Source: Candidatus Zhuqueibacterota bacterium
GTDB lineage: Bacteria > Zhuqueibacterota > Zhuqueibacteria > Residuimicrobiales > Krinioviventaceae
Assembly (NCBI GenBank): GCA_016934825.1
Contig: JAFGSB010000049.1
Location: forward strand, 10,045 to 74,044
Reading direction: 5' to 3'
DNA: 64,000 bases
How positions within the stretch are numbered: position 1 is the stretch's first letter; each line of letters opens with the position of its first letter. The position numbers and the translations under genes are program-made. Positions 7,238 through 34,958 of this stretch are shown in pieces. The notes beneath the pieces are model-generated. The model made no database searches. It saw nothing but the letters and a program-made list of their open reading frames with translations, and had not been told where the DNA came from.

Positions 7238-8377
7238 TTATTTTTGTGTCTTCCTTTCGATCAAACTTTTTGCGGTGATATGATCTGTAATTAAAACATT
7301 TGCCAGCTTTCCAATCAGGGCGGCATAGATCACATCAACCCGGTGATGTGTAACTCCGGCAGTTAAAATTACAGTTTTATTACCCTCAACCATATTTTTC
7401 AGTCGTTTTAATCCAAAACCCAACGGAAAGATTTCTTCTTCCGATTCGTCCAGCATTTCATTTCCGTTGTTATCAAAAAACCAGGAATTGATTTCCCCGA
7501 TGGCGCCCCTGGACTGCATTCGTTCCACTTCTTTGACGTTTACCAGCCCCGTCAAAACTGCATGCGATTCTTTTGAAGCCACCCCAATTGAAGTAATCGC
7601 TATCGTGGCCCCGTCCATGAGTGGTTTGATTGTGTCGTTCCATATTTTACTGTATTTGGTAATCGCTTTACTGACTTTAGCTTCGCCCTGCTGAAACACC
7701 GCGGGAAACGGAATACAGTAATAATTTTGAGACCCGTATATATAAGCAATATCGGAAACCAGCGTGTTGGCGTCGAAAGGATCGATTTTCAACCCCCTGA
7801 ATCCGATCATAGGCGCAACCTTTAAATTTGCAAGCGTTCGGGTCGGTTTCAGGTGACTGACCACCCCGCGCATAGTCCTCCCCCATGATATAAACAGAGA
7901 ATCATCATCCTGGATTCTTTCGTCCAGATATAAAGCGGCCTTTCTGGTTAATTCCCCGGTAATTGCTTCCCGCACGGATTGCAAAGCTAAATCGGTCCAA
8001 CCAACATTTTTATTACCTCTTTCGCGAAACGCTCTGGAAACGACCGGCTCAAGGTTATGGGCCTCAATGGGAGAATAATCAAATATACCCTGATCGCCCT
8101 GAATCAGGCGGACATCTTTTAAGCCGAACAGTTTCTGCAATTGTAATGAATAATCTTTGAAATTAATATTGGCCGGTTCAACAACCCGTACCTGAAGCCA
8201 ACCCAGTTCGTCGGCTCTTTTGAGAATTCTGGAAATACCGGCGGGCGATATATCCAGCATTTTGGCTACCTGATTACCAGGTATTTTTAATTCATGACAA
8301 AGATGAGCGACAATATAGGTTTCCCATTTTTCGCGCTCGTTTAAAACGGAACCGGGATCCTCAAATTTATTTTCCAT
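7238..8377 (-). CDS. SorC/DeoR-type transcriptional regulator (N-terminal HTH plus C-terminal sugar-phosphate-binding domain)
   Basis: HTH segment 'NQVAKMLDISPAGISRILKRADELGWLQVRV' followed by a ~300-aa CggR/SorC-like sugar-binding domain. Transcribed on the same strand as, and upstream of, the GH2 gene. Confidence 0.6.
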   Translation of the reverse strand: MENKFEDPGSVLNEREKWETYIVAHLCHELKIPGNQVAKMLDISPAGISRILKRADELGWLQVRVVEPANINFKDYSLQLQKLFGLKDVRLIQGDQGIFDYSPIEAHNLEPVVSRAFRERGNKNVGWTDLALQSVREAITGELTRKAALYLDERIQDDDSLFISWGRTMRGVVSHLKPTRTLANLKVAPMIGFRGLKIDPFDANTLVSDIAYIYGSQNYYCIPFPAVFQQGEAKVSKAITKYSKIWNDTIKPLMDGATIAITSIGVASKESHAVLTGLVNVKEVERMQSRGAIGEINSWFFDNNGNEMLDESEEEIFPLGFGLKRLKNMVEGNKTVILTAGVTHHRVDVIYAALIGKLANVLITDHITAKSLIERKTQK

Positions 8378-8481
8378 AAACTTTCCCTACAATTAATACT
8401 ATATATTTTTTTCATTAAGAAATTTATTGCATATTCATGAAAGAGTCAATAAAAAATTTATTTAAAAAATGAATATTTTAC

Positions 8482-8510
8482 TTGACAAAATAAAAAAAAT
8501 CCACTATCTT
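8482..8510 (+). promoter_or_regulatory. Candidate sigma70-type promoter (TTGACA, 17-nt spacer, TATCTT) about 270 bp upstream of the giant ORF
   Basis: TTGACA at 8482-8487 and TATCTT at 8505-8510; the AT-rich context makes chance matches likely. Confidence 0.25.
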
Positions 8511-8760
8511 ATAAAAGATATTTCTTTCGAAGTGAAATATATTTTATTAAATATTCTGTTTTCTTTTGTTATTTTTTCATATATATTTACACAGGTGCAT
8601 GTCCAGAACGTGTTTACCGTACAAACCGGAGGTTACCGTATCGAAAATTAAATCTTTGTGCCGCATATAATCTGATAAATATTAATATATTTAACATGAT
8701 TAAAAGATAAAAGTAAAGTTGATCTATAACTTTTTGTAATAAACCGGAGGGATTGAAATT

Positions 8761-11700
8761 ATGCAGACCGAAACTCTGAAAAATGAAATTTTAACTCCTA
8801 TGGGATTACACGATCTTGCGGAAAATGATATCGATAATTTGTTATCCATTATTGTTAAAAAAACGGATAATAAGGAAACATATTTTTTCAAGGACCTCAC
8901 CTTTAACGAATATTCTCACTGTTTTGATCTGAATAAAAAATTTATTTATGAAATCAATAAATGGATCAACTTTATCATCAATCATGAAAAACTCAACATC
9001 AATGAACAGTATTATACCGTTGTTTTTGAAAAATATTTCAAAAATAAAAATTACTTTCCGCTTTCCAGAACATTACGGATGCTGCTTTTCCTGGAATCAA
9101 TTTTTATCAATAACTTTAACGATCCTGAAAACGCCACAACCATCGAAAATTTAAATAAAAACTTTAATATTAACTGGAATATTATTTTAACAGAAAAATC
9201 GGATTTGTTTGTTTATGGAAAAGAATTTTTAATTGATGATATTAATTTAATAAAACAAACCACTATCCCGGTAAATCATAATTTTCACATATCGCTGGCA
9301 TTGTTATTTATCATTGCGGTGTTCTATTCACAAACCGAAGCATACCGGACTGTATTTTGGGAAACATACAGCGCGGAACGTGGCAGAACGGAAATTCAAA
9401 AAAGATTTCAGTTCCTTGATTGTTTTACCATTGAGGGAACGGATCATACCGTATTGGATTTTATTATAGATTTAGTCACCATTATTATCCGGTATCAATC
9501 CGACCCGGGACAACTGGTACGGTTTTTCGGGGATTTTAAATACTATAAAAAAATCGCCTGGCTGACAAAGGAAAAATATAATAACGCCGTAATAAATGAA
9601 AAAATCCTGCATTCTATTTTTAATATTTTGGCTATCATAGAAGAAGCAAGGAATCATCAATTACCGGTAATGACCGACCATACAAAGAATCATATTCAAA
9701 CAGGCATCGATCTGGGCGAAGTTCTGAATAAAGGTGTTCACGAGCCCTTGGATTTGAACCAGCTGAAAAATATGCTGATTAACCTGTCTAAAAATAAAAA
9801 ATATTTACAGAATTATGAAAAAATAAAAAAGGATTATGAGCTACAAAGAGAGGGGTTCACATTTCGATGGTCTTTTGCACGGTCGATTATTAGAAAATTA
9901 CCGGTTGTCGAACCTGATTTTTACAGGTTTTTAAAGCTGACAGAAGAATATGTTATTCAAAATATCAGGGAAAATAACCCTGACAATATTGATATAAAAA
10001 ACCTGGAAAAATTGATCGCGCAATTTTCTTTTGGTCGTGATCAATCGCATAACCTGAAAAAATTAATTTTCAACAATATTAAAAAAATAATGAGCCATAT
10101 CGACGAAACGGATTCGCAACATCATTTTGCTGATGAATTTGAAAAAGCGTTTTATTATCATATTTTAACCATCCCGGATCCTTTTGAGCAGAATAATAAA
10201 GAATATGTCATAAAAATCAAGCTCAAAGACTATATTGCCGCCCCCCATCTCATTTTTGATGAGGAAACCGCAAACAGTTTCAACCGACAATGTGACAGTG
10301 ACTCCTGTGTGCCGAAAGTCCTTGAAGAACAAAAAGATGAGAATATTGATGTCTGTGAATTATTCAGATATTTGTATGTCCGGACAAAGGAAGAATTTGA
10401 TTTACAGGCGAAACGATTGAGTAATAATTACTGGATGTATTTTCCGGTGCCGCTTTTTAAAAGAATTTTGGAAGTTATTTACCGTTTGCAGCCGAATAAT
10501 TGTATCTCAATACCGATAAAAATTAAAAAAGGCGAAGACAATAATAATCAATTTCCAAAACAGACGGATGATGATAAAACAAAAACATTTTTAATTACAT
10601 TTCCCCGCGGCCTGCAAAAGGACAATGAAACGGATATCGAGATAATTAAATGTCTGGCGAATTACGTATGGTCAAATGTTCAAAATAAAGCCATGTCCGA
10701 AGGATTTAAATCAGCAGATATTATACTTGAAGAACTTGATAAACTCTCTGATACAAAAAATACCAAGCAGGACAAAAATTCAAATTGTATTGATAAAGAG
10801 TATTTAATAAGGGAAATTGAAGCGGCAAACAGATACAATTCTTACCACATATTGACGGAAAAGTATTTAACGGATTATAATAAAGAACGCGAAAATATTA
10901 AAACCATCTTTCAACCGGAAATACAATCCTTAAGACCCCTTTCGGTTACTAATCTTAAGAAATTATTAATAAAACAGTTAAATATATATTCCGGGAATAA
11001 AGATTCGGAAAATAAAAGTTTAATTTACATAGGAATTGATATTGGCGGTACATTTATCAAAGTTCAATTTTTTGAATTTATTAAAAACGCAAAAGAGTAC
11101 GAATTTAAAGAAATCGGAGATAAATTCAGGTTATTAACCAAACAAAAAAGAAACACACGGTCCGAACTGCCCGATAAAGAAATTTCTTCGCAGGATTTTG
11201 TTAAAAATATCATCCAAAGGATCAATTTACAAATCTTTTCGAATGATGAAATCAGAAAGAAACTGGAAAACAACAATATACATTCGATCGGCATAACGTG
11301 GCCGGGACCAGTCAGGGACAATAAAGTGTCCGGCACCAGTGGAATTTTGCAGCAGTTTTCTCCCCTCACCAGGGAAATCCCCAAAAATCAAATTGAGGAT
11401 ATCTGGAAATTAAATATTGTCGATACCTTTAAAAATGAATGGAAAGATAATTTCTGTTTAAATAAAGAAATATCACAAAAAGACATAACAGTTCCATTTG
11501 TAGCGCTGGTAAACGACGGCGACGCCGAAGGAATGGGGGCAATAGCATTTCCAATATTTGCAGATCCGAATTTTGATCTAGACGCGAATCCTGACCATGA
11601 AAAGGAAAATACTTTAATAGTTATTAAAATGGGTACCGGCACGGCGGGCGCGATTTTTAAAAATGAGAGTCTGGTTAAGAATCTGAACGAATGGGGAAAA

Positions 11701-12984
11701 ATTATTATTGATTTAGGAGCACATCCGGTATTTTGCGAATCTAAAAAAATTACTCCCTACCCTGTTGGTACCGCAAATCATTATTTATCCCAGAAAACAT
11801 TACCGCGGCTGGCAACGGAATTTAATGAAAATTTCAAACAAATTGAACAGTTGGATAGTCTTGAAATCGGGCTGATATTAAATGTCGGTAAAATTATAAA
11901 AAAGGAAATAAATAACAATACAAATAAAAGCCGGACATTGATCAGGTTAATCGAACAATGCGGCATACGGGAATATATTGTCAGCCAAAAATCTGAAATT
12001 TCCGAAAAAGTAAATGTTGAAGTATTACAGCGTATTTTGGATGAACATAAAGGCAGTCAGGACAAAAAAGGAGACCCTGAATTAGAAGAAATCTTACAAA
12101 AATATATGCACGCTTATCGCAGTTCCGCCATCGAAAAACTGATCGATGAAATATATATTTACGGAACGATACGATTATCAAAAATCCTGAGAAAGAACAA
12201 TGACATTAATAATGATCATATCAATCAATTTCTCTACAAAGTTCTGTTACTGGAAAAAAAATCCGTATCCATTAATAATAAAAATAATGAGATAAATCCG
12301 GATTTCATTTATTCGAAAGAATTTGTAATTGAATTATTGAAATACAAGCCGAAAATTAAAGAAGCTGAAATTACGGACAACTATAAATTGATTTCCGGTA
12401 AATTAAATGCAATCCATGATGAATGTAAAAAATACGCGGAGATAATGGGTATTTATGTCGGAGATTTTATTACCCTGTTATACGATCAGTATAATATGGA
12501 TCAACTCATATTATCCGGCGGCGTTTTATCCGACAAAACACGTGAAATTATTCTGTCAAATGCTCAAAAAAGACTTTGCCAGTACGGCATGAACCTTTTA
12601 ATCAAAGACGGCAGTGTAAACGAACAACAGGGAGAAATGAAATATAAAATAGAATTAAAACATAACGACATCAATAACGGACGGGATTTCGGATGTTATG
12701 GTTCCGCCATTTATGCCGCAAATGAAAGTGTTTATCAGGCACAGAAAGACGGGTTATTAGCTTTAAAATACAATTTAATGAAACTGGAAGCAAATGCAAC
12801 TATTGAAATAACGGAAGATGAGTTGAGTTTTATTTCCGAAAAAACAATGAATAATATAGTATTCAATAATACATTGTTAAACAGAAAAAACACTACCGAT
12901 TTTATTAAAAACATCGGCACCGACTTTAATATCATTCTGACAAAATCAGATAACGACAAAGAAATATTTATAAAATTAAGCTGA
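8761..12984 (+). CDS. Giant 1407-aa protein: uncharacterised N-terminal ~700 aa fused to a ROK/BadF/N-acetylglucosamine-kinase-like ASKHA (actin-fold) ATPase domain carrying large insertions
   Basis: ASKHA motifs in order: phosphate-1 'IYIGIDIGGTFIKV', 'LVNDGDAEGMGAIAF', 'IVIKMGTGTAGAIFKN', adenosine/phosphate-2 'LILSGGVLSD', and the terminal 'FGCYGSAIYAANE'. The N-terminal half matches nothing I recognise. Strongly Asn/Lys/Ile-rich, with much lower GC than neighbouring genes. Confidence 0.7.
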   Translation: MQTETLKNEILTPMGLHDLAENDIDNLLSIIVKKTDNKETYFFKDLTFNEYSHCFDLNKKFIYEINKWINFIINHEKLNINEQYYTVVFEKYFKNKNYFPLSRTLRMLLFLESIFINNFNDPENATTIENLNKNFNINWNIILTEKSDLFVYGKEFLIDDINLIKQTTIPVNHNFHISLALLFIIAVFYSQTEAYRTVFWETYSAERGRTEIQKRFQFLDCFTIEGTDHTVLDFIIDLVTIIIRYQSDPGQLVRFFGDFKYYKKIAWLTKEKYNNAVINEKILHSIFNILAIIEEARNHQLPVMTDHTKNHIQTGIDLGEVLNKGVHEPLDLNQLKNMLINLSKNKKYLQNYEKIKKDYELQREGFTFRWSFARSIIRKLPVVEPDFYRFLKLTEEYVIQNIRENNPDNIDIKNLEKLIAQFSFGRDQSHNLKKLIFNNIKKIMSHIDETDSQHHFADEFEKAFYYHILTIPDPFEQNNKEYVIKIKLKDYIAAPHLIFDEETANSFNRQCDSDSCVPKVLEEQKDENIDVCELFRYLYVRTKEEFDLQAKRLSNNYWMYFPVPLFKRILEVIYRLQPNNCISIPIKIKKGEDNNNQFPKQTDDDKTKTFLITFPRGLQKDNETDIEIIKCLANYVWSNVQNKAMSEGFKSADIILEELDKLSDTKNTKQDKNSNCIDKEYLIREIEAANRYNSYHILTEKYLTDYNKERENIKTIFQPEIQSLRPLSVTNLKKLLIKQLNIYSGNKDSENKSLIYIGIDIGGTFIKVQFFEFIKNAKEYEFKEIGDKFRLLTKQKRNTRSELPDKEISSQDFVKNIIQRINLQIFSNDEIRKKLENNNIHSIGITWPGPVRDNKVSGTSGILQQFSPLTREIPKNQIEDIWKLNIVDTFKNEWKDNFCLNKEISQKDITVPFVALVNDGDAEGMGAIAFPIFADPNFDLDANPDHEKENTLIVIKMGTGTAGAIFKNESLVKNLNEWGKIIIDLGAHPVFCESKKITPYPVGTANHYLSQKTLPRLATEFNENFKQIEQLDSLEIGLILNVGKIIKKEINNNTNKSRTLIRLIEQCGIREYIVSQKSEISEKVNVEVLQRILDEHKGSQDKKGDPELEEILQKYMHAYRSSAIEKLIDEIYIYGTIRLSKILRKNNDINNDHINQFLYKVLLLEKKSVSINNKNNEINPDFIYSKEFVIELLKYKPKIKEAEITDNYKLISGKLNAIHDECKKYAEIMGIYVGDFITLLYDQYNMDQLILSGGVLSDKTREIILSNAQKRLCQYGMNLLIKDGSVNEQQGEMKYKIELKHNDINNGRDFGCYGSAIYAANESVYQAQKDGLLALKYNLMKLEANATIEITEDELSFISEKTMNNIVFNNTLLNRKNTTDFIKNIGTDFNIILTKSDNDKEIFIKLS

Positions 12985-12997
12985 ACAGGAACTATTC

Positions 12998-14080
12998 ATG
13001 GAAATACAGATAAGTATTGAAAAAGAGAAAATAAACAGAACCGCGAAATTATTTATTCCGCGATCTGAATTAAGCCGCGTTTATTTGCATATCGCCTCCG
13101 CGGAGATTCTGAACCGAAGTAATTTTTATTTACGCCGCCATCGATACAAGGACGAAGCGTCAGGTCCCGACCCCAATAAACCGTGCCGGCTGAAAAACGA
13201 CAGTCAAAAAATACCTATTGCGCGGCATATTGAAATCATGCAGCAGCAGAATCTAATCCCACAGATATCTCCCGATAATACTGAGAATGGTGAAAATTTC
13301 CATTCCCTGCCGACCATGCTGGCAGTGCCGATTAGCGATCTGGTCGCGAACCTGATTCGACCCTCCTTTCACAAAGACGGTCTTGGTAATTTTAGAACAT
13401 TCTTTTTTAAGGATGAACCTGTATCCCAAAGAAGTTACTGGTGTATCTGTTACTTGAACAATAAACATGATAATAGCAAAAAACTGGAAATCCGCAAGCT
13501 CAACTTTGATGGCAAAAATGATACGGTTTCGGATTGTAACAATAAAACCGATTTGATCGAATCGGGCTTGGAATGGGCCGCGGGAATTGTACCGCTTGTG
13601 ATCGACAATAAACCGTTAAACGCTCACGAAATCGCGGTTCATGATTATGACCTCAGGCAGATCTTGGGACGGGATTCCACAGGGGACATTCAATATATTT
13701 ATGAGGGCTGGTATAACGAGTGGGAATCACGCATTCAAAAGGTGATTGCGGATTTTACAAAACAAAATAAATCTTTTGAAAGTTTTTATCACAGCATTTT
13801 ATGTTTGGATTCTGATAAAAATGTTTATATTTACCAGTTGGAAGGCGCTTTACCCGAACTTGCCCAAAAACTGGTACAGGAGGGTATACAATATGCCGGA
13901 TTACTGGACTCCGGCGGAAGCTGCGCGATCTACGATGCCTGGCTAAAATGTTACCTGAATCATGGGTGGTATTACCGGGAGCCCCGCGGCAGTATACTTT
14001 TATTTGAGCTTGATAATTCGGAAAGAATTCCCCTGAGCGATTTTTACAGAAATTTTCAGAAACAGGAGACAAACAAATAA
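12998..14080 (+). CDS. Hypothetical 360-aa protein, possibly phosphodiester-glycosidase-like (DUF2233/NAGPA family); start 13 nt after the giant ORF's stop
   Basis: 'AGLLDSGGSCAIY' resembles the 'LDGGGS' motif of phosphodiester glycosidases; otherwise no recognisable domain. AGGAA ribosome-binding site upstream. Confidence 0.55.
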   Translation: MEIQISIEKEKINRTAKLFIPRSELSRVYLHIASAEILNRSNFYLRRHRYKDEASGPDPNKPCRLKNDSQKIPIARHIEIMQQQNLIPQISPDNTENGENFHSLPTMLAVPISDLVANLIRPSFHKDGLGNFRTFFFKDEPVSQRSYWCICYLNNKHDNSKKLEIRKLNFDGKNDTVSDCNNKTDLIESGLEWAAGIVPLVIDNKPLNAHEIAVHDYDLRQILGRDSTGDIQYIYEGWYNEWESRIQKVIADFTKQNKSFESFYHSILCLDSDKNVYIYQLEGALPELAQKLVQEGIQYAGLLDSGGSCAIYDAWLKCYLNHGWYYREPRGSILLFELDNSERIPLSDFYRNFQKQETNK

Positions 14081-15228
14081 TGGACGCTATAATATTAGCC
14101 GCAACTCATGAAAGAGGGAAAAACGCTAACGGCCGGGATGTACCAATCGTTCTTTTGGACCTGGGAGAAGATCCCCTGTTGACGTTGATGATAAAAAAGT
14201 TAATCAAAATAAAAGATTTACATAAAATATTTATTGTCACAAATGAAAAAATAAAACCGGAACTGGATACCTGGTTTGAACAGATCAGTCGATACTATCC
14301 CGACTATGCGAAAAAATTAAAGATTGTCAGCGACGGAACGCACACGCCGGAAGAAAAAAAAGGCGCGGTTGGTGATTTACTGTATGTTATTGAACAGGAG
14401 ATCATTAAAGACGATATAATCATAATCGGCGGCGATAACTGGTTTACATTTGATTTACAGGAATTTGTGAATAAATCAAAACAAAACTCGCCAGCAGTGC
14501 TTGTCACCTCATACAGGTCCCGTTTAAATCCCTCCCGTTTTGGGCTGGTGGAACTCGACCGGAACCATAAAATACTCAAATACCAGGAAAAACCGGAACA
14601 AACTGACCTGTTGTTAAAAGCGTCCTGTGTTTACTATATCAACTCCGGCGACCTGTACTGGCTAAAAGAATTTTCAAAGAGGTATGATATTAAATGTAGT
14701 CCGGGCACATTTTTTTCCTGGTTGACGGAACAGACCGATACGTTCGGCGTTCAAATGGACTCAAAGTGGTACGACGTCGGCGACTCAACGGAGGCCCATT
14801 TACACGGTCCGGATTTTATAAAAATAAGGGAACTGGTCAGGAAAAAATTCGGATCGTATTCGACATGGGAAAACGAGGCCGCGCGGAGGCTGCAATGGAT
14901 CAGTTCCTATGAAGATGTGATCGACGCTTTGAGGGACGACGATATCAATCTCAGGATCGTGGCCGCCAATATACTGGGCGATATGAAAAAACTGCTCGAC
15001 AAACAGGAAAAAAGTTATATTATCAATAAACTCAAAGAACTGCTCGCGGACGGCAGTCAGAATCAAATCGATTATGGCGGATTTCAAAGCGACGAAGATG
15101 AGGTATATTATGTTTCCGCCACCGCGGCCGGGTCCATGGCTAAACTGGGTTACGCGGACAATATCGATACGGTCTTTGCCAAAGCCAAAAAAGAGGGGCT
15201 CAGGGTGAGTGAAATGCGAAACGTATGA
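14080..15228 (+). CDS. Sugar-1-phosphate nucleotidyltransferase-like domain (degenerate N-terminal G-loop) fused to C-terminal HEAT/PBS-lyase-like repeats; start overlaps the upstream stop (TAATG)
   Basis: Nucleotidyltransferase blocks 'IIIIGGDNWFTFDLQEF', 'KILKYQEKPEQ' (EKP motif) and 'VYYINSGDLYW'. The N-terminal loop reads 'ILAATHERGKNANGRD' instead of the canonical GGxGTRL. The C-terminus 'LRDDDINLRIVAANILGDMK…' is HEAT-like. Confidence 0.65.
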   Translation: MDAIILAATHERGKNANGRDVPIVLLDLGEDPLLTLMIKKLIKIKDLHKIFIVTNEKIKPELDTWFEQISRYYPDYAKKLKIVSDGTHTPEEKKGAVGDLLYVIEQEIIKDDIIIIGGDNWFTFDLQEFVNKSKQNSPAVLVTSYRSRLNPSRFGLVELDRNHKILKYQEKPEQTDLLLKASCVYYINSGDLYWLKEFSKRYDIKCSPGTFFSWLTEQTDTFGVQMDSKWYDVGDSTEAHLHGPDFIKIRELVRKKFGSYSTWENEAARRLQWISSYEDVIDALRDDDINLRIVAANILGDMKKLLDKQEKSYIINKLKELLADGSQNQIDYGGFQSDEDEVYYVSATAAGSMAKLGYADNIDTVFAKAKKEGLRVSEMRNV

Positions 15229-15451
15229 CGCCTGAAACGGCGGCTGTGTTATATTGATTAATGTAAAATATAAAACCGGATTATTTTTGTCCCCCTCCTG
15301 TTGAAAAATAATTCGGTTTTTATTTAATAAAAATTTTATTTCAAAACCCGGGTAATGAAAAATTCACCACTCTTATTCACTCCGTGCAGGCAAAGTTTTC
15401 AAATTCTTCATCCGGTGAAGTTTAGAATCGAATTTACCGGTATATCAGATT

Positions 15452-15910
15452 TTATTCACTTTCGCACTCTAACAAAAACATTTTCTCCAGCGCGGATGAA
15501 CCATAGTCCGAATTCATGTCATCCTGAGGCGGCGCAAATTCGAGTCCCGTCATTTTTTCAAGTGCGGTACCGGCCATAAAATTCTCGCCGCTTCCGCCGG
15601 TGATCGCGCTGTAACCCATTGGCAGCAATACATCGCCGGGCAAAACCGCATCGCCAGGAGTGGTATTGATTACTTTGGCCGCAACGCCGTTGCTGAGCGT
15701 CTTGATCAGTTCAATTCTGCCGATTCTCCGATAATCAAATCCCTCAAGTCGGTACACATTCAATTTATCGCCCTTGTCGCCAAGATTATTGACGGTATTG
15801 ATGAGTAAATACTGTTCTTTGACCTTCTCAACCGTGCCGATTTCCGGACTCGCCTGAATGATATTGGCCAGAAACATTATAGCCGAAAAAAGATAAACAA
15901 AAAACTTCAT
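15452..15910 (-). CDS. Small secreted hypothetical protein (start chosen at MKFFVYLFSAIMF with GAGGG ribosome-binding site; track ORF extends to 15949)
   Basis: Signal peptide and Gly-rich C-terminal half; lies immediately downstream of the beta-barrel protein gene on the same strand. Confidence 0.5.
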   Translation of the reverse strand: MKFFVYLFSAIMFLANIIQASPEIGTVEKVKEQYLLINTVNNLGDKGDKLNVYRLEGFDYRRIGRIELIKTLSNGVAAKVINTTPGDAVLPGDVLLPMGYSAITGGSGENFMAGTALEKMTGLEFAPPQDDMNSDYGSSALEKMFLLECESE

Positions 15911-15953
15911 TTTTCCCTCTGTAATTAAAAATTCCCATATACAATACAAAAAA

Positions 15954-17177
15954 TTAAAACCCGTAAATTAACGACACCTGTGTAAACAGGTTCGTTCCCG
16001 AATAATCCTTGCCGCTTAATATAAAAGGCCCGTTATGCAGAAAATTGGCGGCATTGTTGGTATCCAGCAAAGCGTCGATCTTTAAGCGGCCTAAACGAAA
16101 ATAAATACCCAGGTTGGCGCTGTACTGGTTGAAATATTCATCGTATTGATCGAGTGTTGTGTTATCAACTGGTGAATTTTGTGTCATCTTTTGTATGAGT
16201 TTGTACATCGACAGACGGAATCCCAGCCATTTTAGCAGATCCGCTTCCACGCCGATATTTACAAACGGCAGCGCGGAATAAGAATTTTCGGCCGCGACGG
16301 GCGCGGTTCCGGTTATCAGGCTTGTTTCGGTGGTGGATGATTGGCGCACCATTCCGGCGGCGCATGTTACCAGTACAAATTCACGCGGTATGATATTAAA
16401 TGCAACTCCGAGGTTCAGAATATTCTGTTTTTCCAGAAATGTGTGGATATTCTGTGTGATGAGTACCTGTTCCACTAAAAACTCGTATCCCGCCCCGTTA
16501 TAAGTATAATTAAAGAAAGGAACAAGAACAACCTTCTCGGACAGGGAACGCATATAACGCGCGGAAAAACTAATGGAGTGGTGACCATAAGGCTCACGCA
16601 CCTTGACCGTATCCCTGCTTCCAAGTTCATAACTGAATGAACGATTTGTATAAGAAATGGCTGCGTCGACCCGGCTGCTTTCATCGGGTTTGAAACTCGC
16701 TCCGCCTTCAATGGTTAGACTGCCGAGGCTTCCGCCCTGATCCTGTTTCGCGTCTTTGGGATTCGAATATTCCATCTTGTTATTATACCTGGCTAAATGC
16801 AGACCGACATCGAATTGTTGGGCGCGATAGCCGGCAAACAGATCAATCTGCTGATTAGCCATATTCATACCGGGTTCGGGATCAACATACTTTATGACGC
16901 GGTTCTGGTCGGAAAGATAAACACCGATGGTCGTATTCGGATTGATCGGTAAATTTATACCGCCCTCCGCAAGCGGATTACCGGTATATGATTCCAGAAA
17001 AATTTTATTATTATAATCAACAATCGTAGACGGATAGAGCCAGATATTATAACTGTCGATTAAATAAAAATTTGTTAGATAACCGAGGGATTGCAATCGT
17101 GTCCCACTCGCCCATGCGGGTGATATACTTGATAATAGTATAATCATAAACACGATTATTTTACTTAATTTTTTCAT
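15954..17177 (-). CDS. Outer-membrane beta-barrel protein (porin-like)
   Basis: Signal peptide MKKLSKIIVFMIILLSSISPAWA, alternating amphipathic beta-strand pattern, and a C-terminal '…LIYGF' with terminal Phe typical of outer-membrane proteins. Confidence 0.6.
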   Translation of the reverse strand: MKKLSKIIVFMIILLSSISPAWASGTRLQSLGYLTNFYLIDSYNIWLYPSTIVDYNNKIFLESYTGNPLAEGGINLPINPNTTIGVYLSDQNRVIKYVDPEPGMNMANQQIDLFAGYRAQQFDVGLHLARYNNKMEYSNPKDAKQDQGGSLGSLTIEGGASFKPDESSRVDAAISYTNRSFSYELGSRDTVKVREPYGHHSISFSARYMRSLSEKVVLVPFFNYTYNGAGYEFLVEQVLITQNIHTFLEKQNILNLGVAFNIIPREFVLVTCAAGMVRQSSTTETSLITGTAPVAAENSYSALPFVNIGVEADLLKWLGFRLSMYKLIQKMTQNSPVDNTTLDQYDEYFNQYSANLGIYFRLGRLKIDALLDTNNAANFLHNGPFILSGKDYSGTNLFTQVSLIYGF

Positions 17178-17658
17178 GACACTATTCTCCTTTATTAATT
17201 TTGATTTAACAGGTTATCTGATTTTCCAGGAAACAATAACGTCATCTTGAACCCCTGGTTGATTCGACCCATTTGTCTGTTTATTAAAATCTATAATAAA
17301 AAAAGATATATTGCAAGGAAATTTCAATTAAATTTTTAATATTTTTCGAGTGAATAATGAAAAAAACTTGTTTCCGCACTCTATCAACGATAATGAAGGA
17401 GCTGAATTCAATTTTCTCAAACTTGGAAAATTTATAATAAAATAACATCAAGTATGAAAAAATTTCAATTTCAGGAATTGCAAAGTTGAAATAATTTCAC
17501 TTACCGGAATTGTTATATAAAATAATAAATATTTAGTTTTTATAATTTAATCTTTCCGAATGGGCGGATACAATTCTAACAGAAGTCGAATAATATATTC
17601 TATTTATTGTTTCTTAAAATAATCAACTCTATTTAACTTGTAAATAAAAGAGTTTAAT

Positions 17659-19182
17659 ATGGTATTTTCAATCCCCTTTTATATGCATGAGGTCATTGAT
17701 AGAGCCGCAGAGGTTTATCCACGTAAGATATTTATTGAAGATGAAACGGATTCGCTGTCCTATGAAAATTTTATTCGTTGCGGAACACAACTGGCAGACG
17801 AACTGAAAACAAAATATGACCTGAAAATGGGTGACAGACTTCTCACCGCATGTGAAAACACATTGCTGGTCCCTCTTTATCTGTATGCCACATCCCGTTT
17901 AGGGGGTATATTTGTTCCTCTTGCCCAAAATTTCCAGGGACAAAGACTGGCACATATTTTAAAGGATTGTTCACCCAAATTAATAATCACAGATAAGAAA
18001 AATTTTGCCTCGCGCTGTAAAGGCTATCGGGTTGTCCTGCAAAAGGGCTTTAAAGACCTGTACAAAATCATTAAAACCCTCAAACCTGACACAAGCGTTC
18101 CCGAAACATTAATTGATCTGGACACATTCCTGCTGATTTATACCTCCGGAAGCACCGGTATGCCAAAGGGTGTTGAACTCAGCCATTCTTCAGTCATTTC
18201 GGCGACAGAGTCCATCGCACGATACCTGGAAGTGAAAGAAAATGAAAAAATTATAAATTTCAATCCCTTCAGTTTTGATTATGGTTTGTACCAGATTTTT
18301 ATAACCGCAATACGTGGTGCGACGCTTTACATAAATAAGAATTTTATTTATAAGGAAAAAATCTTTTCATTCATAAAAGAAAAAAAAATTACCGGCATAC
18401 CATTTGTCCCGTCCCAGATAGTGGCCATGTACGACAGGTCAGAATTAAAAGAAAAAATATTCGACCGGGTCAACTTTATATCCACAACAGGGGCCCCATT
18501 TCCGTACAGACATGTATCGAAATTGCGCTATAATTTCCCCAATGCCCGGCTCTATCCGATGTACGGGTTAACGGAGTGCAAGCGGGTATCTTATTTACAC
18601 CCGTCAAAAGTCGACCGAAAACCAACATCGGTTGGCAGGGCAATGCCGAACTCACGGATCCGAATTATAAATGAAAAAAAGCAGGTTGTCGCGGCGGGTG
18701 AAACAGGTATGCTGGTCATCGAGGGTCGTAATGTCATGCAGGGGTATTGGAACATCCCGGAAGGTAATAACAATGTTCTGGGTTCTATCCCGGATTCACG
18801 GAACAAAATACTGTTCAGCGGCGACTATTTTTATTTGGATGACGAGAACGATCTGTTCTTTGTCGGCAGACGGGACGATATAGTTAAATCAAATGGTATA
18901 CGAATCAGTTTAAAGGACATTGAAAAAATACTTGAAAGGATACCGGAGGTTTCCGAGGCGGCCGTTGTGGCCGTTCCGGATGAAAAAATTGAAAATACAT
19001 TTCATGCGTTTGTCGTTAAAAAACAGGGGACGGAAATCGATTCCGATGGTATTATACAAAATATGTTAAAAGAAGTAGAAACCCGGTTCATGCTGCCGAA
19101 ACAAATCACGCTTACAGATTCCATACCAAAAAAAACCAATGGAAAAATTGATTATCCGCTGTTAAAAACCATGACCGGATAA
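17659..19182 (+). CDS. AMP-dependent synthetase/ligase (class I adenylate-forming enzyme, acyl-CoA ligase-like)
   Basis: AMP-binding signature 'IYTSGSTGMPKGVELSH'. 'YGLTE' and 'GDYFYLDDENDLFFVGRRDDIVK' are adenylation-domain blocks. Confidence 0.8.
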   Translation: MVFSIPFYMHEVIDRAAEVYPRKIFIEDETDSLSYENFIRCGTQLADELKTKYDLKMGDRLLTACENTLLVPLYLYATSRLGGIFVPLAQNFQGQRLAHILKDCSPKLIITDKKNFASRCKGYRVVLQKGFKDLYKIIKTLKPDTSVPETLIDLDTFLLIYTSGSTGMPKGVELSHSSVISATESIARYLEVKENEKIINFNPFSFDYGLYQIFITAIRGATLYINKNFIYKEKIFSFIKEKKITGIPFVPSQIVAMYDRSELKEKIFDRVNFISTTGAPFPYRHVSKLRYNFPNARLYPMYGLTECKRVSYLHPSKVDRKPTSVGRAMPNSRIRIINEKKQVVAAGETGMLVIEGRNVMQGYWNIPEGNNNVLGSIPDSRNKILFSGDYFYLDDENDLFFVGRRDDIVKSNGIRISLKDIEKILERIPEVSEAAVVAVPDEKIENTFHAFVVKKQGTEIDSDGIIQNMLKEVETRFMLPKQITLTDSIPKKTNGKIDYPLLKTMTG

Positions 19183-19454: not shown

Positions 19455-20360
19455 ATGATTCTTGTTGTCGATGATGAACCGATTTACCAGAAACTGATTA
19501 AAAATTCGCTCAAGGGGACCGGTTGTGAGATTGACATTGCCGGTGACGGTTATATGGCTATGGAAAAAATTAAACAGAATAGATACCTGCTGGCGATTAT
19601 TGATCTTGTGCTGCCCGGTGCGATTAACGGAATGGATGTTATCAGAAAACTCAAAAAACAAAATCCGGAAACGCCAATTATCGTATGTTCAGGCTATGGG
19701 GGTAGTTCAATACAAACACGAATAGAAAAAGCCGGAGCCAATGCTTTTATTTTTAAACCATTCACTCCCGAACAGATGTTTGCCAAAGTTCATTCATTAT
19801 TAAGCGATACTATCGATTTTGAAAAACTCAAACAAGCGGTCGAAGAATCCCAAATTAATCCTGAAACGATTCCGGACATATTAGAAAATTTCCCGGATAA
19901 TAAAATAAATGAAATTTTAAATTTAGGTACAAGTTTTGAGCTGATTGCGCCGGACAAGCTGAGTGTAAATTTTACCGATTCGATAACAATTATCATGTCC
20001 GGTACGGTTGAGTGTCTTTATCAGGATAAGCCTATAGGAGAGTTACATGTACGAGAATCTATCGGTCATGAATCACTAATGAAAAATATTGAAAAAGATA
20101 AACAGATCGAATTGATAGCAAAATCTGACGTAAAATTACTTGTCATTCTCAAAGTGGAGTTCTTGAAATATTTTTGCACACAGACGAATGAATTATTATC
20201 CATTCTTGAAAAAAATATAAAAAAAACGCTGTCTAAAAATATTATCCTCATTTCCAAGATTCAAAGTCCTCCCCAAAAAATCAAACCGTCGGATTCAAGT
20301 AATATAAAAGACGATGATATTCAAGATAAGAATAAGAAAATAGATCTATTAAACATTTAA
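19455..20360 (+). CDS. Response-regulator receiver domain fused to a cyclic-nucleotide-binding-like (CAP effector) domain; no DNA-binding domain
   Basis: REC: 'VVDDEP', phospho-acceptor context 'LAIIDLVLPG', 'CSGYG', 'FIFKPF'. C-terminal '…TIIMSGTVECLYQDKPIGELHVRESIGHESLM…LLVILKVEFLKYF' follows the cNMP-binding beta-roll pattern. Confidence 0.75.
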   Translation: MILVVDDEPIYQKLIKNSLKGTGCEIDIAGDGYMAMEKIKQNRYLLAIIDLVLPGAINGMDVIRKLKKQNPETPIIVCSGYGGSSIQTRIEKAGANAFIFKPFTPEQMFAKVHSLLSDTIDFEKLKQAVEESQINPETIPDILENFPDNKINEILNLGTSFELIAPDKLSVNFTDSITIIMSGTVECLYQDKPIGELHVRESIGHESLMKNIEKDKQIELIAKSDVKLLVILKVEFLKYFCTQTNELLSILEKNIKKTLSKNIILISKIQSPPQKIKPSDSSNIKDDDIQDKNKKIDLLNI

Positions 20361-34801: not shown

Positions 34802-34830
34802 TTGACAATAAATAATTTTTTTTGTACTAT
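34802..34830 (+). promoter_or_regulatory. Near-consensus sigma70-type promoter TTGACA, 17-nt spacer, TACTAT, about 130 bp upstream of the GH30 gene
   Basis: cTTGACAataaataattttttttgTACTATtc, sitting in a 900-bp AT-rich divergent intergenic region. Confidence 0.35.
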
Positions 34831-34958
34831 TCTTAAACGTTATCGCAAACGATTAAGCCTCTCCATCCTATCCTCTCCTCAATTCGATAAACGACAGATT
34901 CAAGAATTATTCCTGACGTCAAAACTCTTTATAAAATTCATTTAAACAGGAGTTTATC

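What the first reader, a model, noticed from the sequence alone, without database searches (positions are those of the whole stretch)
8761..15228. Three-gene, translationally coupled operon: giant sugar-kinase-like ASKHA ATPase fusion, DUF2233-like protein, and nucleotidyltransferase–HEAT fusion. This is the candidate undescribed system.
The three ORFs are packed as an operon: a 13-nt gap between the first two, then a TAATG stop/start overlap. The first protein (1407 aa) has a C-terminal half with a complete set of ASKHA sugar-kinase motifs (GIDIGGT…NDGDAEG…MGTGTAG…LILSGGV…GSAIYAA) interrupted by long insertions. Its ~700-aa N-terminal half matches nothing I recognise. The second protein carries only a weak LDSGGS phosphodiester-glycosidase-like motif. 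The third is an NDP-sugar-pyrophosphorylase fold (EKP, GGDNW blocks) with a degenerate NTP-binding G-loop, fused to HEAT-like repeats. Kinase plus sugar-1-P nucleotidyltransferase is the logic of nucleotide-sugar salvage, as in FKP or AmgK/MurU. The domain fusions, the giant N-terminal extension and the putative phosphodiester glycosidase are not part of any described salvage pathway. Alternative readings are a glycan or teichoic-acid-like phosphodiester remodelling module, or a nucleotide-based defence island. The locus sits between a SorC-family sugar-phosphate regulator gene and an outer-membrane-protein operon, not in core metabolism.
Basis: partly seen in the sequence, partly recalled or inferred. 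Interest (0 to 1): 0.75.

Follow-up and report, generated by a model that had tools for sequence, protein, structure and literature searches.

The report
Conserved kinase–glycosidase–nucleotidyltransferase gene module, function unknown
Three tightly packed genes in an uncultured KSB1 bacterium form a rare gene module, found across at least six bacterial phyla, that pairs a giant sugar-kinase fusion protein with an intracellular relative of the lysosomal 'uncovering enzyme' and an odd sugar-nucleotide-synthase-like protein; no described pathway or defence system matches it and its function is still unknown.

Summary
ORFs 8761-12984 (1407 aa), 12998-14080 (360 aa) and 14080-15228 (382 aa) are real, with a 13-nt gap, a TAATG overlap and a hairpin terminator after the third gene.

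- **p1:** a family-specific N-module fused to a divergent ROK-type kinase. The N-module's fold resembles class-II tRNA nucleotidyltransferases and HD/PDE/PPX-C domains, but it has no catalytic HD or DxD residues and instead carries an Arg-rich conserved patch. The kinase motifs are invariant in 23 homologues.
- **p2:** a cytoplasmic NAGPA/DUF2233-fold protein (pLDDT 93) that keeps the catalytic DGGGS motif as an invariant DSGGS.
- **p3:** an RmlA/GalU-like nucleotidyltransferase with a rebuilt NTP loop (LAATHER) and a HEAT-like tail.
- **Co-conservation:** p1 precedes p2 in 18 of 25 informative loci, in KSB1, Fibrobacterota, Planctomycetota, Acidobacteriota, Nitrospirota and Geobacter. One protein is a p1-p2 fusion. 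An NTP_transferase gene is present in 15 of 27 loci and a UTRA-domain protein in 11.
- **Rarity:** 41 representatives among 1.84 billion proteins.

There are no PADLOC, phage or plasmid hits. My best reading (about 0.4) is a metabolite-regulated turnover or salvage module for a sugar carried on an anomeric phosphodiester. A conflict-system reading (about 0.2) is not excluded. The module appears undescribed and moderately interesting.

The parts
7238..8377 (-). SorC-type regulator (HTH plus sugar-phosphate-binding domain), divergently transcribed. It is a candidate regulator of the operon.
   Evidence: Pfam Sugar-bind 2.4e-35 and MarR_2 0.002. This association is seen only in this genome. In 11 other loci the adjacent regulator-like gene is a UTRA-domain protein.
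8378..8760 (.). AT-rich divergent intergenic region holding the presumed promoter and operator of the operon.
   Evidence: Sigma-70-like TTGACA-17-TATCTT at 8482-8510, though the region as a whole is not enriched over shuffles. GGAGG lies 7 nt before the p1 ATG. No Rfam match. Only AT-rich imperfect repeats.
8761..12984 (+). p1, a 1407-aa fusion of a family-specific N-module and a divergent ROK-type kinase.
   Evidence: ORF confirmed. No Pfam hit above threshold. Homologues are 1150-1450 aa in other phyla, and split into 728 + 540 aa in Geobacter. This is the lowest-GC gene of the window (32.7% against 39.6%).
8929..9660 (+). p1 residues about 57-300: an all-helical domain carrying the conserved Arg/Gln/Ser-rich patch. 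It is a putative phosphate- or nucleotide-binding sensor domain with an HD/PDE/PPX-C-like fold.
9913..10905 (+). p1 residues about 385-715: an alpha/beta domain, possibly the part that resembles the pol-beta / class-II tRNA nucleotidyltransferase fold. No catalytic carboxylate triad is conserved.
11008..12984 (+). p1 residues about 750-1407: ROK/polyphosphate-glucokinase-like ASKHA kinase domain with long helical insertions.
   Evidence: Profile against PDB: 1woq polyP/ATP-glucomannokinase 1.5e-7, aligned over the DIGGT and NDxDA...GTG...E-G motifs. Pfam ROK hits in 14 of 33 homologues, best 2.9e-7. D(IGGT) 23/23, ND 23/23, GTG 23/23, ExGK 23/23 and GG 22/23 are conserved.
12998..14080 (+). 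p2, a 360-aa cytoplasmic NAGPA/DUF2233-fold protein and putative sugar-1-phosphodiester glycosidase.
   Evidence: AF2 pLDDT 93.4, pTM 0.92. Foldseek PDB: NAGPA 6pku and 6pky, and DUF2233 3ohg, E about 3e-7, probability 1.0. Profile against PDB: NAGPA as top hits, but weak. 89 homologues at about 45% identity across phyla. No hydrophobic N-terminus or TM segment.
13907..13921 (+). Codons for D304-S-G-G-S308, the counterpart of the catalytic DGGGS motif of NAGPA.
   Evidence: Invariant in all 42 aligned family members, including the 26%-identical paralogues. It aligns with the LDGGGS of NAGPA. The role of the motif is taken from PMC13474241.
14080..15228 (+). p3, a 382-aa protein with a sugar-1-phosphate nucleotidylyltransferase-like domain (aa 1-240; nt 14080-14799) and a HEAT-like helical tail (aa about 262-382; nt 14863-15228).
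   Evidence: Pfam NTP_transferase 3.1e-16, 60 bits against a cut-off of 21. PDB: RmlA 3hl3 6.7e-8, GalU-like 8x7s 3.2e-7, alphaRep 3.4e-4 at residues 276-302. HEAT_2 0.02. Full-length orthologues follow p2 in 9 loci. GDN, EKP and WYDxG are kept. GxGTR is replaced by the conserved LAATHER, and the PKP lysine is lost.
15272..15320 (+). Hairpin plus U-run: a likely bidirectional intrinsic terminator that closes the operon.
   Evidence: 17-bp stem, -16 kcal/mol, z = -4.28, with 0 of 200 shuffles as stable. The consensus scan missed it because the stem is AT-rich.

Best explanation
This is a self-contained cytoplasmic enzyme module in which all catalytic parts handle one sugar carried on its anomeric carbon by a phosphate diester (an NDP-sugar, or a sugar-1-phosphate linked to something else).

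Proposed steps:
1. p2, an intracellular NAGPA-type glycosidase with its catalytic motif intact, cuts the sugar off the phosphate (sugar-1-P-X + H2O -> sugar + P-X).
2. The ROK-type domain of p1 phosphorylates the released sugar with ATP (or polyphosphate). The large N-module of p1, built from catalytically dead HD/PDE-like and nucleotidyltransferase-like folds with an Arg-rich pocket, binds the nucleotide or phosphate part of the substrate or an effector. It thereby gates or targets the kinase. p1 and p2 work as a physical unit.
3. p3, an RmlA/GalU-like protein with a rebuilt NTP loop and a HEAT tail, either re-activates the sugar phosphate to an NDP-sugar or acts as the NDP-sugar/sugar-1-P-sensing subunit.

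Expression is set by a sugar-phosphate-type repressor: UTRA/GntR in most genomes, and probably the divergent SorC gene here.

Shown: the folds, the intact motifs, the co-conservation, the fusion and the regulator association. Inferred: the substrate class, the order of steps, the role of the N-module, and whether the net function is salvage or turnover.
For: - **Operon.** Tight coupling and a terminator.
- **p2.** NAGPA/DUF2233 fold at pLDDT 93 and Foldseek probability 1.0. Invariant DSGGS matches the DGGGS motif shown to bind GlcNAc and phosphate. No signal peptide.
- **p1 kinase domain.** ROK/polyP-glucokinase similarity. The phosphate-1, catalytic ND, phosphate-2, ExG(K) sugar-binding and adenosine motifs are conserved in 22-23 of 23 homologues.
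- **p1-p2 linkage.** 18 of 25 informative loci in at least 6 phyla, plus a natural p1-p2 fusion.
- **Third gene.** An NTP_transferase-family gene is in 15 of 27 loci. Nine are p3 orthologues. Five are HTH-fused. One is a canonical GlmU/GMPPB-like enzyme standing in the p3 position, which argues that nucleotidyltransferase chemistry is wanted there.
- **Regulation.** UTRA-domain proteins, with or without a GntR HTH, are adjacent in 11 loci, and a SorC sugar-phosphate regulator is adjacent here. This is the usual signature of metabolite-controlled sugar operons.
- **Genomic setting.** The window neighbourhood is rich in glycan-degrading enzymes (GH2, GH30, CBM9, T9SS tails). Neighbours elsewhere are mostly housekeeping genes.
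Against: - No transporter, mutase or downstream catabolic enzyme is conserved with the module, which is unusual for a salvage or catabolic operon.
- Characterised ROK kinases phosphorylate non-anomeric hydroxyls (my own knowledge), so kinase -> nucleotidyltransferase does not connect without a mutase.
- p3 lacks the GxGTR loop and the PKP lysine and may not be catalytic. In five loci the NTP_transferase domain is fused to an XRE-type HTH, which looks regulatory rather than metabolic.
- If all three enzymes act on one sugar, the sum is a futile NTP-consuming cycle.
- The distribution is very rare and patchy (9 loci in 185,579 species genomes; 41 representatives in 1.84e9 proteins). One copy sits inside a conjugative element.
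- Distant p2 paralogues sit beside STAND NTPases, TPR-CHAT proteases and a type I restriction subunit.
- No substrate has been identified. All steps beyond fold and motif are inference.
Confidence: 0.4

Rival explanations
1. It is a conflict (anti-phage or anti-plasmid) system. The dead-enzyme N-module of p1 senses an invader-derived nucleotide or nucleic-acid cue. The p2 glycosidase, alone or in a kinase-nucleotidyltransferase-glycosidase futile cycle, then destroys an essential NDP-sugar pool (for example UDP-GlcNAc or UDP-Glc) or burns NTPs. This arrests growth or blocks phage DNA glycosylation.
For: - Rare, patchy, cross-phylum distribution with about 45% identity for p2.
- It is a compact autonomous module with variable flanks.
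- One copy lies between the relaxase and ArdC/TraG/SSB of a conjugative element.
- The Geobacter copy lies next to an MNT/HEPN pair and a WYL regulator.
- Distant p2 paralogues with the same DSGGS motif sit next to a kinase-STAND NTPase, a NACHT-FGE protein, a type I restriction R subunit and TPR-CHAT proteins.
- A giant multidomain protein with inactivated enzyme folds, an XRE-HTH fusion and an occasional small membrane protein (weak 8xMP hit) are all common in defence systems.
- The three activities formally close an NTP-consuming cycle.
Against: - No PADLOC hit for p1 or p2, and only one weak chance-level hit for p3.
- No copy in IMG/VR viral contigs, INPHARED phages or PLSDB plasmids.
- Most neighbourhoods are housekeeping or glycan-metabolism genes with no defence genes.
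- The associated regulators are sugar-metabolite types (UTRA/GntR, SorC), not the WYL or CapW types typical of defence.
- p2 and p3 have host-like GC content.
- The paralogue contexts concern a 26%-identical branch, not this module.
Confidence: 0.2
2. It is mainly a sensory or regulatory device rather than a pathway. p3 (NTP_transferase-like with a rebuilt loop, plus HEAT) and the UTRA protein are ligand sensors for an NDP-sugar or sugar phosphate. p1 and p2 set the level of that ligand. The output is transcriptional, through the HTH that is fused either to UTRA or to the NTP_transferase domain.
For: - The HTH swaps partners. It appears as GntR-HTH+UTRA with p3 lacking an HTH (L009, L019), or as UTRA without an HTH together with an XRE-HTH+NTP_transferase (L010, L015).
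- p3 has lost the canonical NTP-loop residues but keeps the sugar-side residues, with the replacement LAATHER strictly conserved in five orthologues.
- From my own knowledge, eIF2B-epsilon shows that NT-like domains with HEAT tails can be non-catalytic.
Against: - Kinase and glycosidase active-site motifs are under strict conservation, so real turnover of a metabolite is central.
- No regulated target genes are conserved next to the module.
- A canonical, apparently catalytic GlmU-like enzyme replaces p3 in one locus.
- The window has no UTRA gene and no HTH on p3.
Confidence: 0.12
3. It is classical nucleotide-sugar salvage in the manner of AmgK/MurU or FKP: the kinase makes a sugar-1-phosphate, p3 makes the NDP-sugar, and p2 supplies the free sugar.
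For: - A kinase and an NTP_transferase lie in one operon.
- p3's nearest solved relatives are RmlA and GalU.
- A glycosidase upstream of a kinase is logical for salvage.
Against: - The kinase is ROK-like, not an anomeric kinase of the APH or GHMP type.
- There is no mutase.
- p3 lacks the NTP loop and the lysine.
- About 12 loci have p1-p2 without any NTP_transferase gene.
- The N-module has no counterpart in salvage enzymes.
Confidence: 0.08
4. These are ordinary housekeeping genes (a ROK glucokinase and RmlA) that are adjacent by chance, or the long ORF is an annotation artefact.
For: - p1 is AT-rich and low-complexity in parts, and is the lowest-GC gene in the window.
- Word-based homology searches returned only the protein itself.
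Against: - Full HMMER scans and locus comparisons recover 40 homologues, and 23 of the 33 sequences aligned in A5 are full-length (at least 1000 aa), with conserved motifs over the whole length.
- Adjacency recurs in at least 6 phyla, and a fusion exists.
- Neither p1 nor p2 reaches any curated family threshold.
- The AF2 models are confident.
Confidence: 0.02

Closest known systems
NAGPA 'uncovering enzyme' and bacterial DUF2233 (PF09992; PDB 6pku, 6pky, 3ohg)
   Same: p2 shares the fold (Foldseek probability 1.0). It also has the catalytic Asp-Gly-rich loop, DSGGS against DGGGS, which in NAGPA holds the sugar and the phosphate.
   Different: - p2 is cytoplasmic, with no signal peptide, propeptide or EGF stalk.
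- Sequence similarity is confined to the motif region (E 0.03-0.17).
- TM-scores are only 0.3-0.55.
- p2 does not reach the Pfam threshold.
- It is always coupled to a kinase-type partner.
- The sugar specificity is unknown.
ROK family and polyphosphate/ATP-glucomannokinase (PF00480; PDB 1woq)
   Same: The C-terminal half of p1 has the DxGGT, ND, GTG, ExG and GG motifs in the same order, and a profile hit to 1woq at 1.5e-7.
   Different: - The His of ExGH is Lys.
- There is no CxCGxxGC zinc motif.
- There are about 250 aa of helical insertions.
- It is fused to a 740-aa N-module.
- The window protein itself has no significant Pfam ROK hit.
RmlA/GalU-type sugar-1-phosphate nucleotidylyltransferases (PF00483)
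   Same: The p3 N-domain passes the Pfam threshold and keeps the GDN, EKP and WxDxG elements.
   Different: - GxGTR is replaced by THER within a conserved LAATHER.
- The PKP lysine is absent.
- The C-terminal tail is HEAT-like instead of an oligomerisation or LbH domain.
- In other loci the domain is fused to an XRE HTH.
PPX/GppA (ASKHA phosphatase plus HD-like helical domain) and class-II tRNA nucleotidyltransferases with HD domains
   Different: - The domain order is reversed.
- There is no sequence similarity.
- The ASKHA part is kinase-like, not Ppx-like.
- The nucleotidyltransferase carboxylates are not conserved.
AmgK/MurU and FKP nucleotide-sugar salvage
   Same: A kinase and a sugar-1-P nucleotidyltransferase-like protein are encoded together.
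   Different: - The kinase fold is different (ROK rather than APH or GHMP).
- An anomeric specificity for the kinase is not expected.
- p3 has a degenerate NTP site.
- The obligatory partner is a phosphodiester glycosidase, which those pathways lack.
GntR/HutC (UTRA)-controlled sugar operons such as nagAB/NagR or treAP/TreR
   Same: A UTRA-domain regulator lies next to a kinase plus glycosidase pair in 11 loci.
   Different: - There is no PTS or transporter and no downstream catabolic enzyme.
- In several loci the UTRA protein has no HTH.
- This window has a SorC regulator instead.

Membership tests
ROK family (PF00480) / ASKHA sugar kinases | Phosphate-1 DxGxT, catalytic Asp (ND), phosphate-2 GTG and adenosine GG motifs, in order | tested here: met
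   GIDIGGT 756-764, NDG 918-920, GTGTAG 958-963, GGV 1253-1255. They are conserved in 22-23 of 23 full-length homologues and aligned to 1woq.
ROK family (PF00480) / ASKHA sugar kinases | Significant match to the curated family model | tested here: not met
   The window protein has no ROK hit. Its best hits are Hexokinase_1 at E 0.023 and NCBIfam polyP-glucokinase at 0.051, far below the cut-offs. 14 of 33 homologues give weak ROK hits, best 2.9e-7.
ROK family (PF00480) / ASKHA sugar kinases | ExGH sugar/zinc motif and CxCGxxGCxE zinc site (a feature of classical ROK, from my own knowledge) | tested here: not met
   The motif is E977-W-G-K980 (Lys, 23/23), and no CxC motif follows it. In this respect it resembles the zinc-less polyphosphate glucokinases.
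NAGPA / DUF2233 phosphodiester glycosidase (PF09992) | Fold of the catalytic domain | tested here: met
   AF2 pLDDT 93.4. Foldseek against 6pku, 6pky, 3ohg, 6u11 and 6pkg gives E 3e-7 to 1e-6 and probability 1.0. TM-scores are moderate (0.3-0.55).
NAGPA / DUF2233 phosphodiester glycosidase (PF09992) | Invariant DGGGS catalytic and substrate-binding motif (PMC13474241) | tested here: met
   D304-S-G-G-S308 is invariant in 42 sequences and aligned to LDGGGS of NAGPA. The second position is Ser instead of Gly.
NAGPA / DUF2233 phosphodiester glycosidase (PF09992) | Significant match to the curated family model | tested here: not met
   No Pfam hit for the window protein even at E 10. Only 2 of 89 homologues carry a weak precomputed PF09992 hit.
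NAGPA / DUF2233 phosphodiester glycosidase (PF09992) | Secreted or luminal location (signal peptide or membrane anchor) | tested here: not met
   No hydrophobic N-terminus or TM segment. The maximum Kyte-Doolittle 19-residue mean is 1.18.
NAGPA / DUF2233 phosphodiester glycosidase (PF09992) | Hydrolysis of a sugar-1-phosphodiester | not testable with these tools
   This needs an enzyme assay.
Sugar-1-phosphate nucleotidylyltransferase (PF00483) | Match to the family model above the gathering score | tested here: met
   60.1 bits against a cut-off of 21.2, E 3.1e-16, residues 27-235.
Sugar-1-phosphate nucleotidylyltransferase (PF00483) | N-terminal GxGTRxxP NTP-binding loop and the following PKP lysine | tested here: not met
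   p3 has LAATHERGKNANGRDVPIVLL where GalU-like 8x7s has LAAGKGTRVRPITYTIPKPMI. LAATHER is conserved in 5 orthologues.
Sugar-1-phosphate nucleotidylyltransferase (PF00483) | Sugar-phosphate and metal-side elements (GDN, EKP, WxDxG) | tested here: met
   GGDNW 117-121, EKP 170-172, WYDVG 230-234, aligned to RmlA 3hl3.
AmgK/MurU- or FKP-type nucleotide-sugar salvage | Anomeric (C1) sugar kinase feeding the nucleotidyltransferase directly | tested here: not met
   The kinase belongs to the ROK/ASKHA type, not the APH or GHMP folds of AmgK, NahK or FKP. Regiospecificity itself is not testable here.
Known anti-phage defence systems (PADLOC-DB v2) | Match of any component to a defence-system protein model | tested here: not met
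   p1 and p2 have no hits. p3 has one weak hit (E 0.0077, 14 bits) to an unrelated TM-protein model.
Known anti-phage defence systems (PADLOC-DB v2) | Recurrent location in defence islands or on mobile elements | tested here: inconclusive
   One of about 27 loci is in a conjugative element and one is next to MNT/HEPN plus WYL. The others lie among housekeeping genes. There are no phage or plasmid copies. The sample is too small for statistics.
HD-domain phosphohydrolases / PDEs | Conserved H...HD...D metal-binding residues | tested here: not met

The most novel reading that the evidence does not exclude
The module is a new kind of immune or conflict system that works on the nucleotide-sugar pool. 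The dead-enzyme N-module of p1 recognises an invader-derived nucleotide, RNA end or polyphosphate-like cue. This switches on the p1-p2(-p3) ensemble, which hydrolyses an essential NDP-sugar, or runs a kinase-nucleotidyltransferase-glycosidase futile cycle that burns NTPs. The result is a block on cell-wall synthesis, phage DNA glycosylation or replication. It would be an NDP-sugar counterpart of NAD+- or dNTP-depleting defences. The first cytoplasmic role for the NAGPA fold would follow in either case.
Probability: 0.2. Interest if true: 0.85.

Novelty: new variant of a known kind. Interest (0 to 1): 0.6.

Why it matters
- **A new setting for the NAGPA fold.** The phosphodiester-glycosidase fold is known from the lysosomal mannose-6-phosphate pathway and from secreted bacterial proteins. 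Here a deeply conserved branch (about 45% identity across phyla) is predicted to be cytoplasmic, keeps the catalytic motif, and is locked to a giant kinase fusion. Cytoplasmic sugars on an anomeric phosphate are mostly NDP-sugars and lipid-linked precursors, which are the currency of envelope synthesis. An enzyme set that cuts, re-phosphorylates and perhaps re-activates them would be a new control point, or a new weapon.
- **Two protein families gain a defined context.** The p1 N-module and the c5 protein have no family annotation. The work gives concrete, cheap tests: three recombinant enzymes and a small substrate panel.
- **Limits.** The organisms are uncultured, the module is rare, and no long-standing question hinges on it.

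Tried and rejected
1. **Word-indexed homology searches with p1 and with a seven-sequence p1 alignment** returned only the query itself. Low-complexity words saturated the candidate list, so two of the three searches were lost. Homologues came instead from loci found through p2 and from the exhaustive HMMER scan of the N-module.
2. **Exact-sequence look-up of p1 in the contig index** found nothing on record.
It was accepted once the alignment used the ids.
4. **The AFDB Foldseek library** was unavailable. The N-module was therefore compared only with the PDB, and no residue ranges were returned, so placing the HD-like and nucleotidyltransferase-like similarities within the N-module is my inference.
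5. **Sequence-profile search of the N-module against the PDB** gave nothing even at E 10.
6. **The c5 protein that replaces p1 in five loci** has no Pfam or PDB hit. I suspected a ribokinase or ADP-dependent-kinase fold from its motifs (GGNPGI, NEVE, GxGAxFDG). It aligned the NxxE regions but at 4.8% probability, so the result is inconclusive.
7. **Riboswitch or leader RNA upstream of p1:** no Rfam match.
8. **Horizontal-transfer signal from base composition:** only p1 is AT-rich, while p2 and p3 are host-like. I rejected this as evidence for a recently acquired island.
9. **tRNA or integrase boundary:** there are no tRNAs in the window and no mobile-element genes among the neighbours examined.
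10. **Literature searches** for DUF2233/NAGPA with conflict or anti-phage terms, for ROK with NTP_transferase and defence, and for UDP-GlcNAc depletion defence found no description of this module. A search for '8xMP' returned only irrelevant hits.

Full report
**1.
- p1 ends in TGA. Thirteen bases later, after an AGGA, p2 starts.
- The p2 TAA shares its last base with the p3 ATG (TAATG), with AGGAG upstream.
- A 17-bp hairpin followed by a U-run at 15272-15320 closes the unit (z = -4.3 against shuffles).
- No + strand terminator-like site lies at the p1-p2 or p2-p3 junction; the only + strand candidate (10429-10449) lies inside p1.
- Upstream, a SorC-type regulator and a GH2 enzyme are divergently transcribed. 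Downstream there is a PopA-like porin gene.
- The source is a candidate division KSB1 MAG.
- None of the three proteins has a signal peptide or TM segment.

**2. p1, C-terminal half.**
The window protein has no significant Pfam or NCBIfam hit. The only traces are Hexokinase_1 at 0.023 and polyP-glucokinase at 0.051. Other evidence is clearer.
- A profile of seven full-length homologues hits polyphosphate/ATP-glucomannokinase 1woq at 1.5e-7. The alignment runs through the phosphate-1 motif and the ND...GTG...E-G block.
- 14 of 33 homologues give weak Pfam ROK hits, best 2.9e-7.
- Across 23 full-length homologues, conservation is: Asp of DIGGT 23/23, catalytic ND 23/23, GTG 23/23, ExGK 23/23, and the adenosine GG 22/23.
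- I take this as strong evidence for an active ROK-like sugar kinase or ATPase domain. It is atypical in having Lys for the ROK His, no zinc motif, and roughly 250 residues of helical insertions.

**3. p1, N-terminal half.**
- An exhaustive HMMER scan of 1.84 billion representatives with residues 1-740 found only 41 proteins at E <= 1e-3. Most are 1150-1450 aa fusions of the same architecture. None has any Pfam domain other than ROK.
- With 33 of these as the alignment, AlphaFold2 gave a confident model (pLDDT 81.5, pTM 0.84).
- Foldseek was weak: 3wfo at probability 0.9 but E 0.5, and DNA polymerase beta at E about 0.4-1.
- A sequence profile found nothing in the PDB.
- No HD dyad and no nucleotidyltransferase carboxylate triad is conserved. 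The conserved polar residues are R103, T104, R106, S190, Q191, W200, E201, S204, R209, E211, R244, Q246, S247, Q251, R254, E295 and R297, all in the helical region 57-300.
- My inference is that the N-module is built from enzyme-derived folds that have lost catalysis and now form an arginine-rich pocket for a phosphate-bearing ligand. The tools gave no residue ranges, so which sub-domain matches which template is not established.

**4. p2.**
- 89 homologues were found, typically 42-50% identical across phyla. The 42 that were aligned share 25 invariant residues.
- The AF2 model is excellent (pLDDT 93.4).
- Foldseek puts the vertebrate uncovering enzyme NAGPA and the Bacteroides DUF2233 structure on top, at E about 3e-7 and probability 1.0.
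- The profile also picks NAGPA chains as its best, though weak, PDB sequence hits, aligned at LDSGGS against LDGGGS.
- A 2026 structural study identifies the invariant DGGGS motif as the element that holds GlcNAc and phosphate, with the Asp essential. It also notes slow turnover of GlcNAc-1-P (PMC13474241).
- In p2 the motif D304-S-G-G-S308 is invariant, including in the 26%-identical paralogues.
- p2 is therefore most likely an active glycosidase for a sugar attached through C1 to a phosphate. Unlike every characterised relative, it is cytoplasmic.

**5. p3.**
- The N-domain passes the Pfam NTP_transferase threshold. It is nearest to RmlA and GalU-like structures.
- GDN, EKP and WYDxG are retained. 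The GxGTR loop is replaced by THER within a strictly conserved LAATHER, and the PKP lysine is missing.
- The C-terminal 120 residues give weak HEAT signals.
- Full-length orthologues (42-49% identity for the five aligned) directly follow p2 in nine loci.

**6. Co-conservation.**
I collected 37 loci and compared ORFs. About 27 distinct loci carry a close p2.

| Feature | Count |
|---|---|
| p1 (fused or split) immediately upstream of p2 | 18 of 25 loci where that side is readable |
| Unrelated 300-520-aa protein ('c5') in that position | 5 of 25 |
| Neither | 2 of 25 |
| NTP_transferase-family gene adjacent | 15 of 27 |
| of which p3 orthologues | 9 |
| of which XRE-HTH fusions | 5 |
| of which canonical GlmU/GMPPB-like | 1 |
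| UTRA-domain protein adjacent (with or without GntR HTH) | 11 |

- The HTH and NTP_transferase data come, and the UTRA data.
- One protein, P0105 (1640 aa), is a p1-p2 fusion.
- Named hosts include KSB1, Fibrobacterota, Geobacter, Nitrospiraceae, Acidobacteriaceae, Bryobacteraceae, Planctomycetaceae, Thermoguttaceae and Phycisphaerae.
- The family is rare: 9 loci in one genome for each of 185,579 species.

**7. Metabolism or conflict?**

For a metabolite-controlled enzyme module:
- The sugar-metabolite-type regulators (UTRA/GntR, and SorC here).
- Strict conservation of the kinase and glycosidase active sites.
- A canonical nucleotidyltransferase standing in for p3 in one locus.
- The glycan-degrading neighbourhood of the window (GH2, GH30, CBM9, T9SS-sorted proteins).
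- Mostly housekeeping neighbours elsewhere.
- No PADLOC hits.
- No copies in IMG/VR, INPHARED or PLSDB.
- Host-like GC for p2 and p3.

For a conflict system:
- Rarity and patchiness.
- The compact autonomous layout.
- One copy inside a conjugative element, between the relaxase and ArdC/TraG/SSB.
- The Geobacter copy beside MNT/HEPN and a WYL regulator.
- Contexts of the distant p2 paralogues: a kinase-STAND NTPase, a NACHT-FGE protein, a type I restriction subunit, and TPR-CHAT proteins together with a HEAT protein and an HTH-NTP_transferase.
- Kinase, nucleotidyltransferase and phosphodiester glycosidase formally close an NTP-consuming cycle.

No conserved transporter, mutase or downstream enzyme accompanies the module. 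That weakens the salvage and catabolism readings, and the FKP or AmgK/MurU analogy fails on the kinase type.

**8. Verdict.**
The specific salvage logic is not supported as stated, and the defence alternative remains a minority possibility.
- I commit, at about 0.4, to a regulated cytoplasmic turnover or salvage module for a sugar carried on an anomeric phosphodiester. In this reading p2 is the bond-cleaving enzyme, p1 is a ligand-gated kinase physically coupled to p2, and p3 is the re-activating or sensing subunit.
- The conflict reading stands at about 0.2, a mainly regulatory reading at about 0.12, and classical salvage at about 0.08.
- The literature searches found no description of the module.
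- I rate it a new variant of a known kind (sugar-phosphate and NDP-sugar processing operons), with two component families lacking any annotation. Interest is 0.6.

Noticed in passing
L003:8716-10017, L019:1831-3390, L028/L029:3493-4398, L037:8683-9969, L005:3-344: In five loci a 300-520-aa protein with no Pfam or PDB hit ('c5') takes the place of p1 directly upstream of p2, usually after a GntR/UTRA gene. Its motifs (IGGNPGI, NEVE, GxGAxFDG) reminded me of ribokinase or ADP-dependent sugar kinases. If that is right, the kinase has been displaced by a non-orthologous one.
   Followed up: partly
protein P0105 (1640 aa): This is a natural fusion of p1 and p2. Residues 1293-1627 are 48% identical to the window's p2, which is Rosetta-stone evidence that the two proteins act together.
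   Followed up: yes
L012:5606-9658, L031:2307-5450, L032:2-2515, L034:3831-8741 and 14106-17885, and the contig of P0086: Distant p2 paralogues (about 26% identity, DSGGS kept) sit next to a Ser/Thr-kinase-STAND NTPase, a NACHT-FGE-sulfatase protein, a type I restriction R subunit, and TPR-CHAT proteins. In L034 a separate HEAT-repeat protein and an HTH-NTP_transferase are also present. This suggests the wider cytoplasmic NAGPA-like clade is used in conflict- or signalling-type neighbourhoods.
   Followed up: partly
L001:6180-8366 and 8382-10004 (Geobacter sp., GCA_030834625.1): Here p1 is split into 728-aa and 540-aa ORFs. The break falls inside the ASKHA domain: the DIGGT phosphate-1 motif is at the end of the first ORF, and the rest of the kinase is in the second. 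The same split is seen on 11 contigs, so it is probably genuine rather than a sequencing error.
   Followed up: partly
L015:1-21071 (Logan SRR24767408 contig): The p1-p2 pair, an HTH-NTP_transferase and a UTRA-only protein lie inside a conjugative element. They sit between a relaxase and ArdC, a TraG-like coupling protein, SSB and RepB/ParA genes.
   Followed up: no
L001:11098-11499, L025:9928-10338: A 133-136-aa hydrophobic protein follows p2 in the Geobacter-type loci that lack an NTP_transferase gene. It has a weak Pfam hit to the octameric membrane protein family 8xMP (E 6e-4, below threshold).
   Followed up: no
L006:3354-4535, L008:11162-12631, L022: In Planctomycetota loci a 390-490-aa protein with no Pfam hit ('c7') follows p2 where p3 would be. 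Its relation to NTP_transferases was not resolved.
   Followed up: no
window 8761-12984 versus 12998-15228: p1 has the lowest GC of the genes examined in the window (32.7%, GC3 34%), while p2 and p3 are 42-43%, like their neighbours. p1 also carries long Lys/Asn/Ile-rich insertions that are absent from homologues. This suggests relaxed constraint on linker regions rather than recent transfer of the operon.
   Followed up: partly
window 15452-15949 (-) and L018:2771-3229: A 165-aa ORF with a signal-peptide-like N-terminus lies convergent to p3 and upstream of the PopA-like porin gene. It is conserved in the closest relative's contig, which shows synteny of the downstream flank in a related KSB1 genome. 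No family hit.
   Followed up: no
window 19455-20360 and 20505-21425: Two adjacent response-regulator genes of about 300 aa have unannotated C-terminal halves. The first is low in GC (34.5%).
   Followed up: no
window 31034-34066 (-), 34959-38840 (+): There are large secreted glycan-active proteins with T9SS C-terminal sorting domains: a 4x CBM9 protein and a GH30-like protein with Ig domains. An AT-rich intergenic region lies between them (GC 0.336 at 34001-36000).
   Followed up: no
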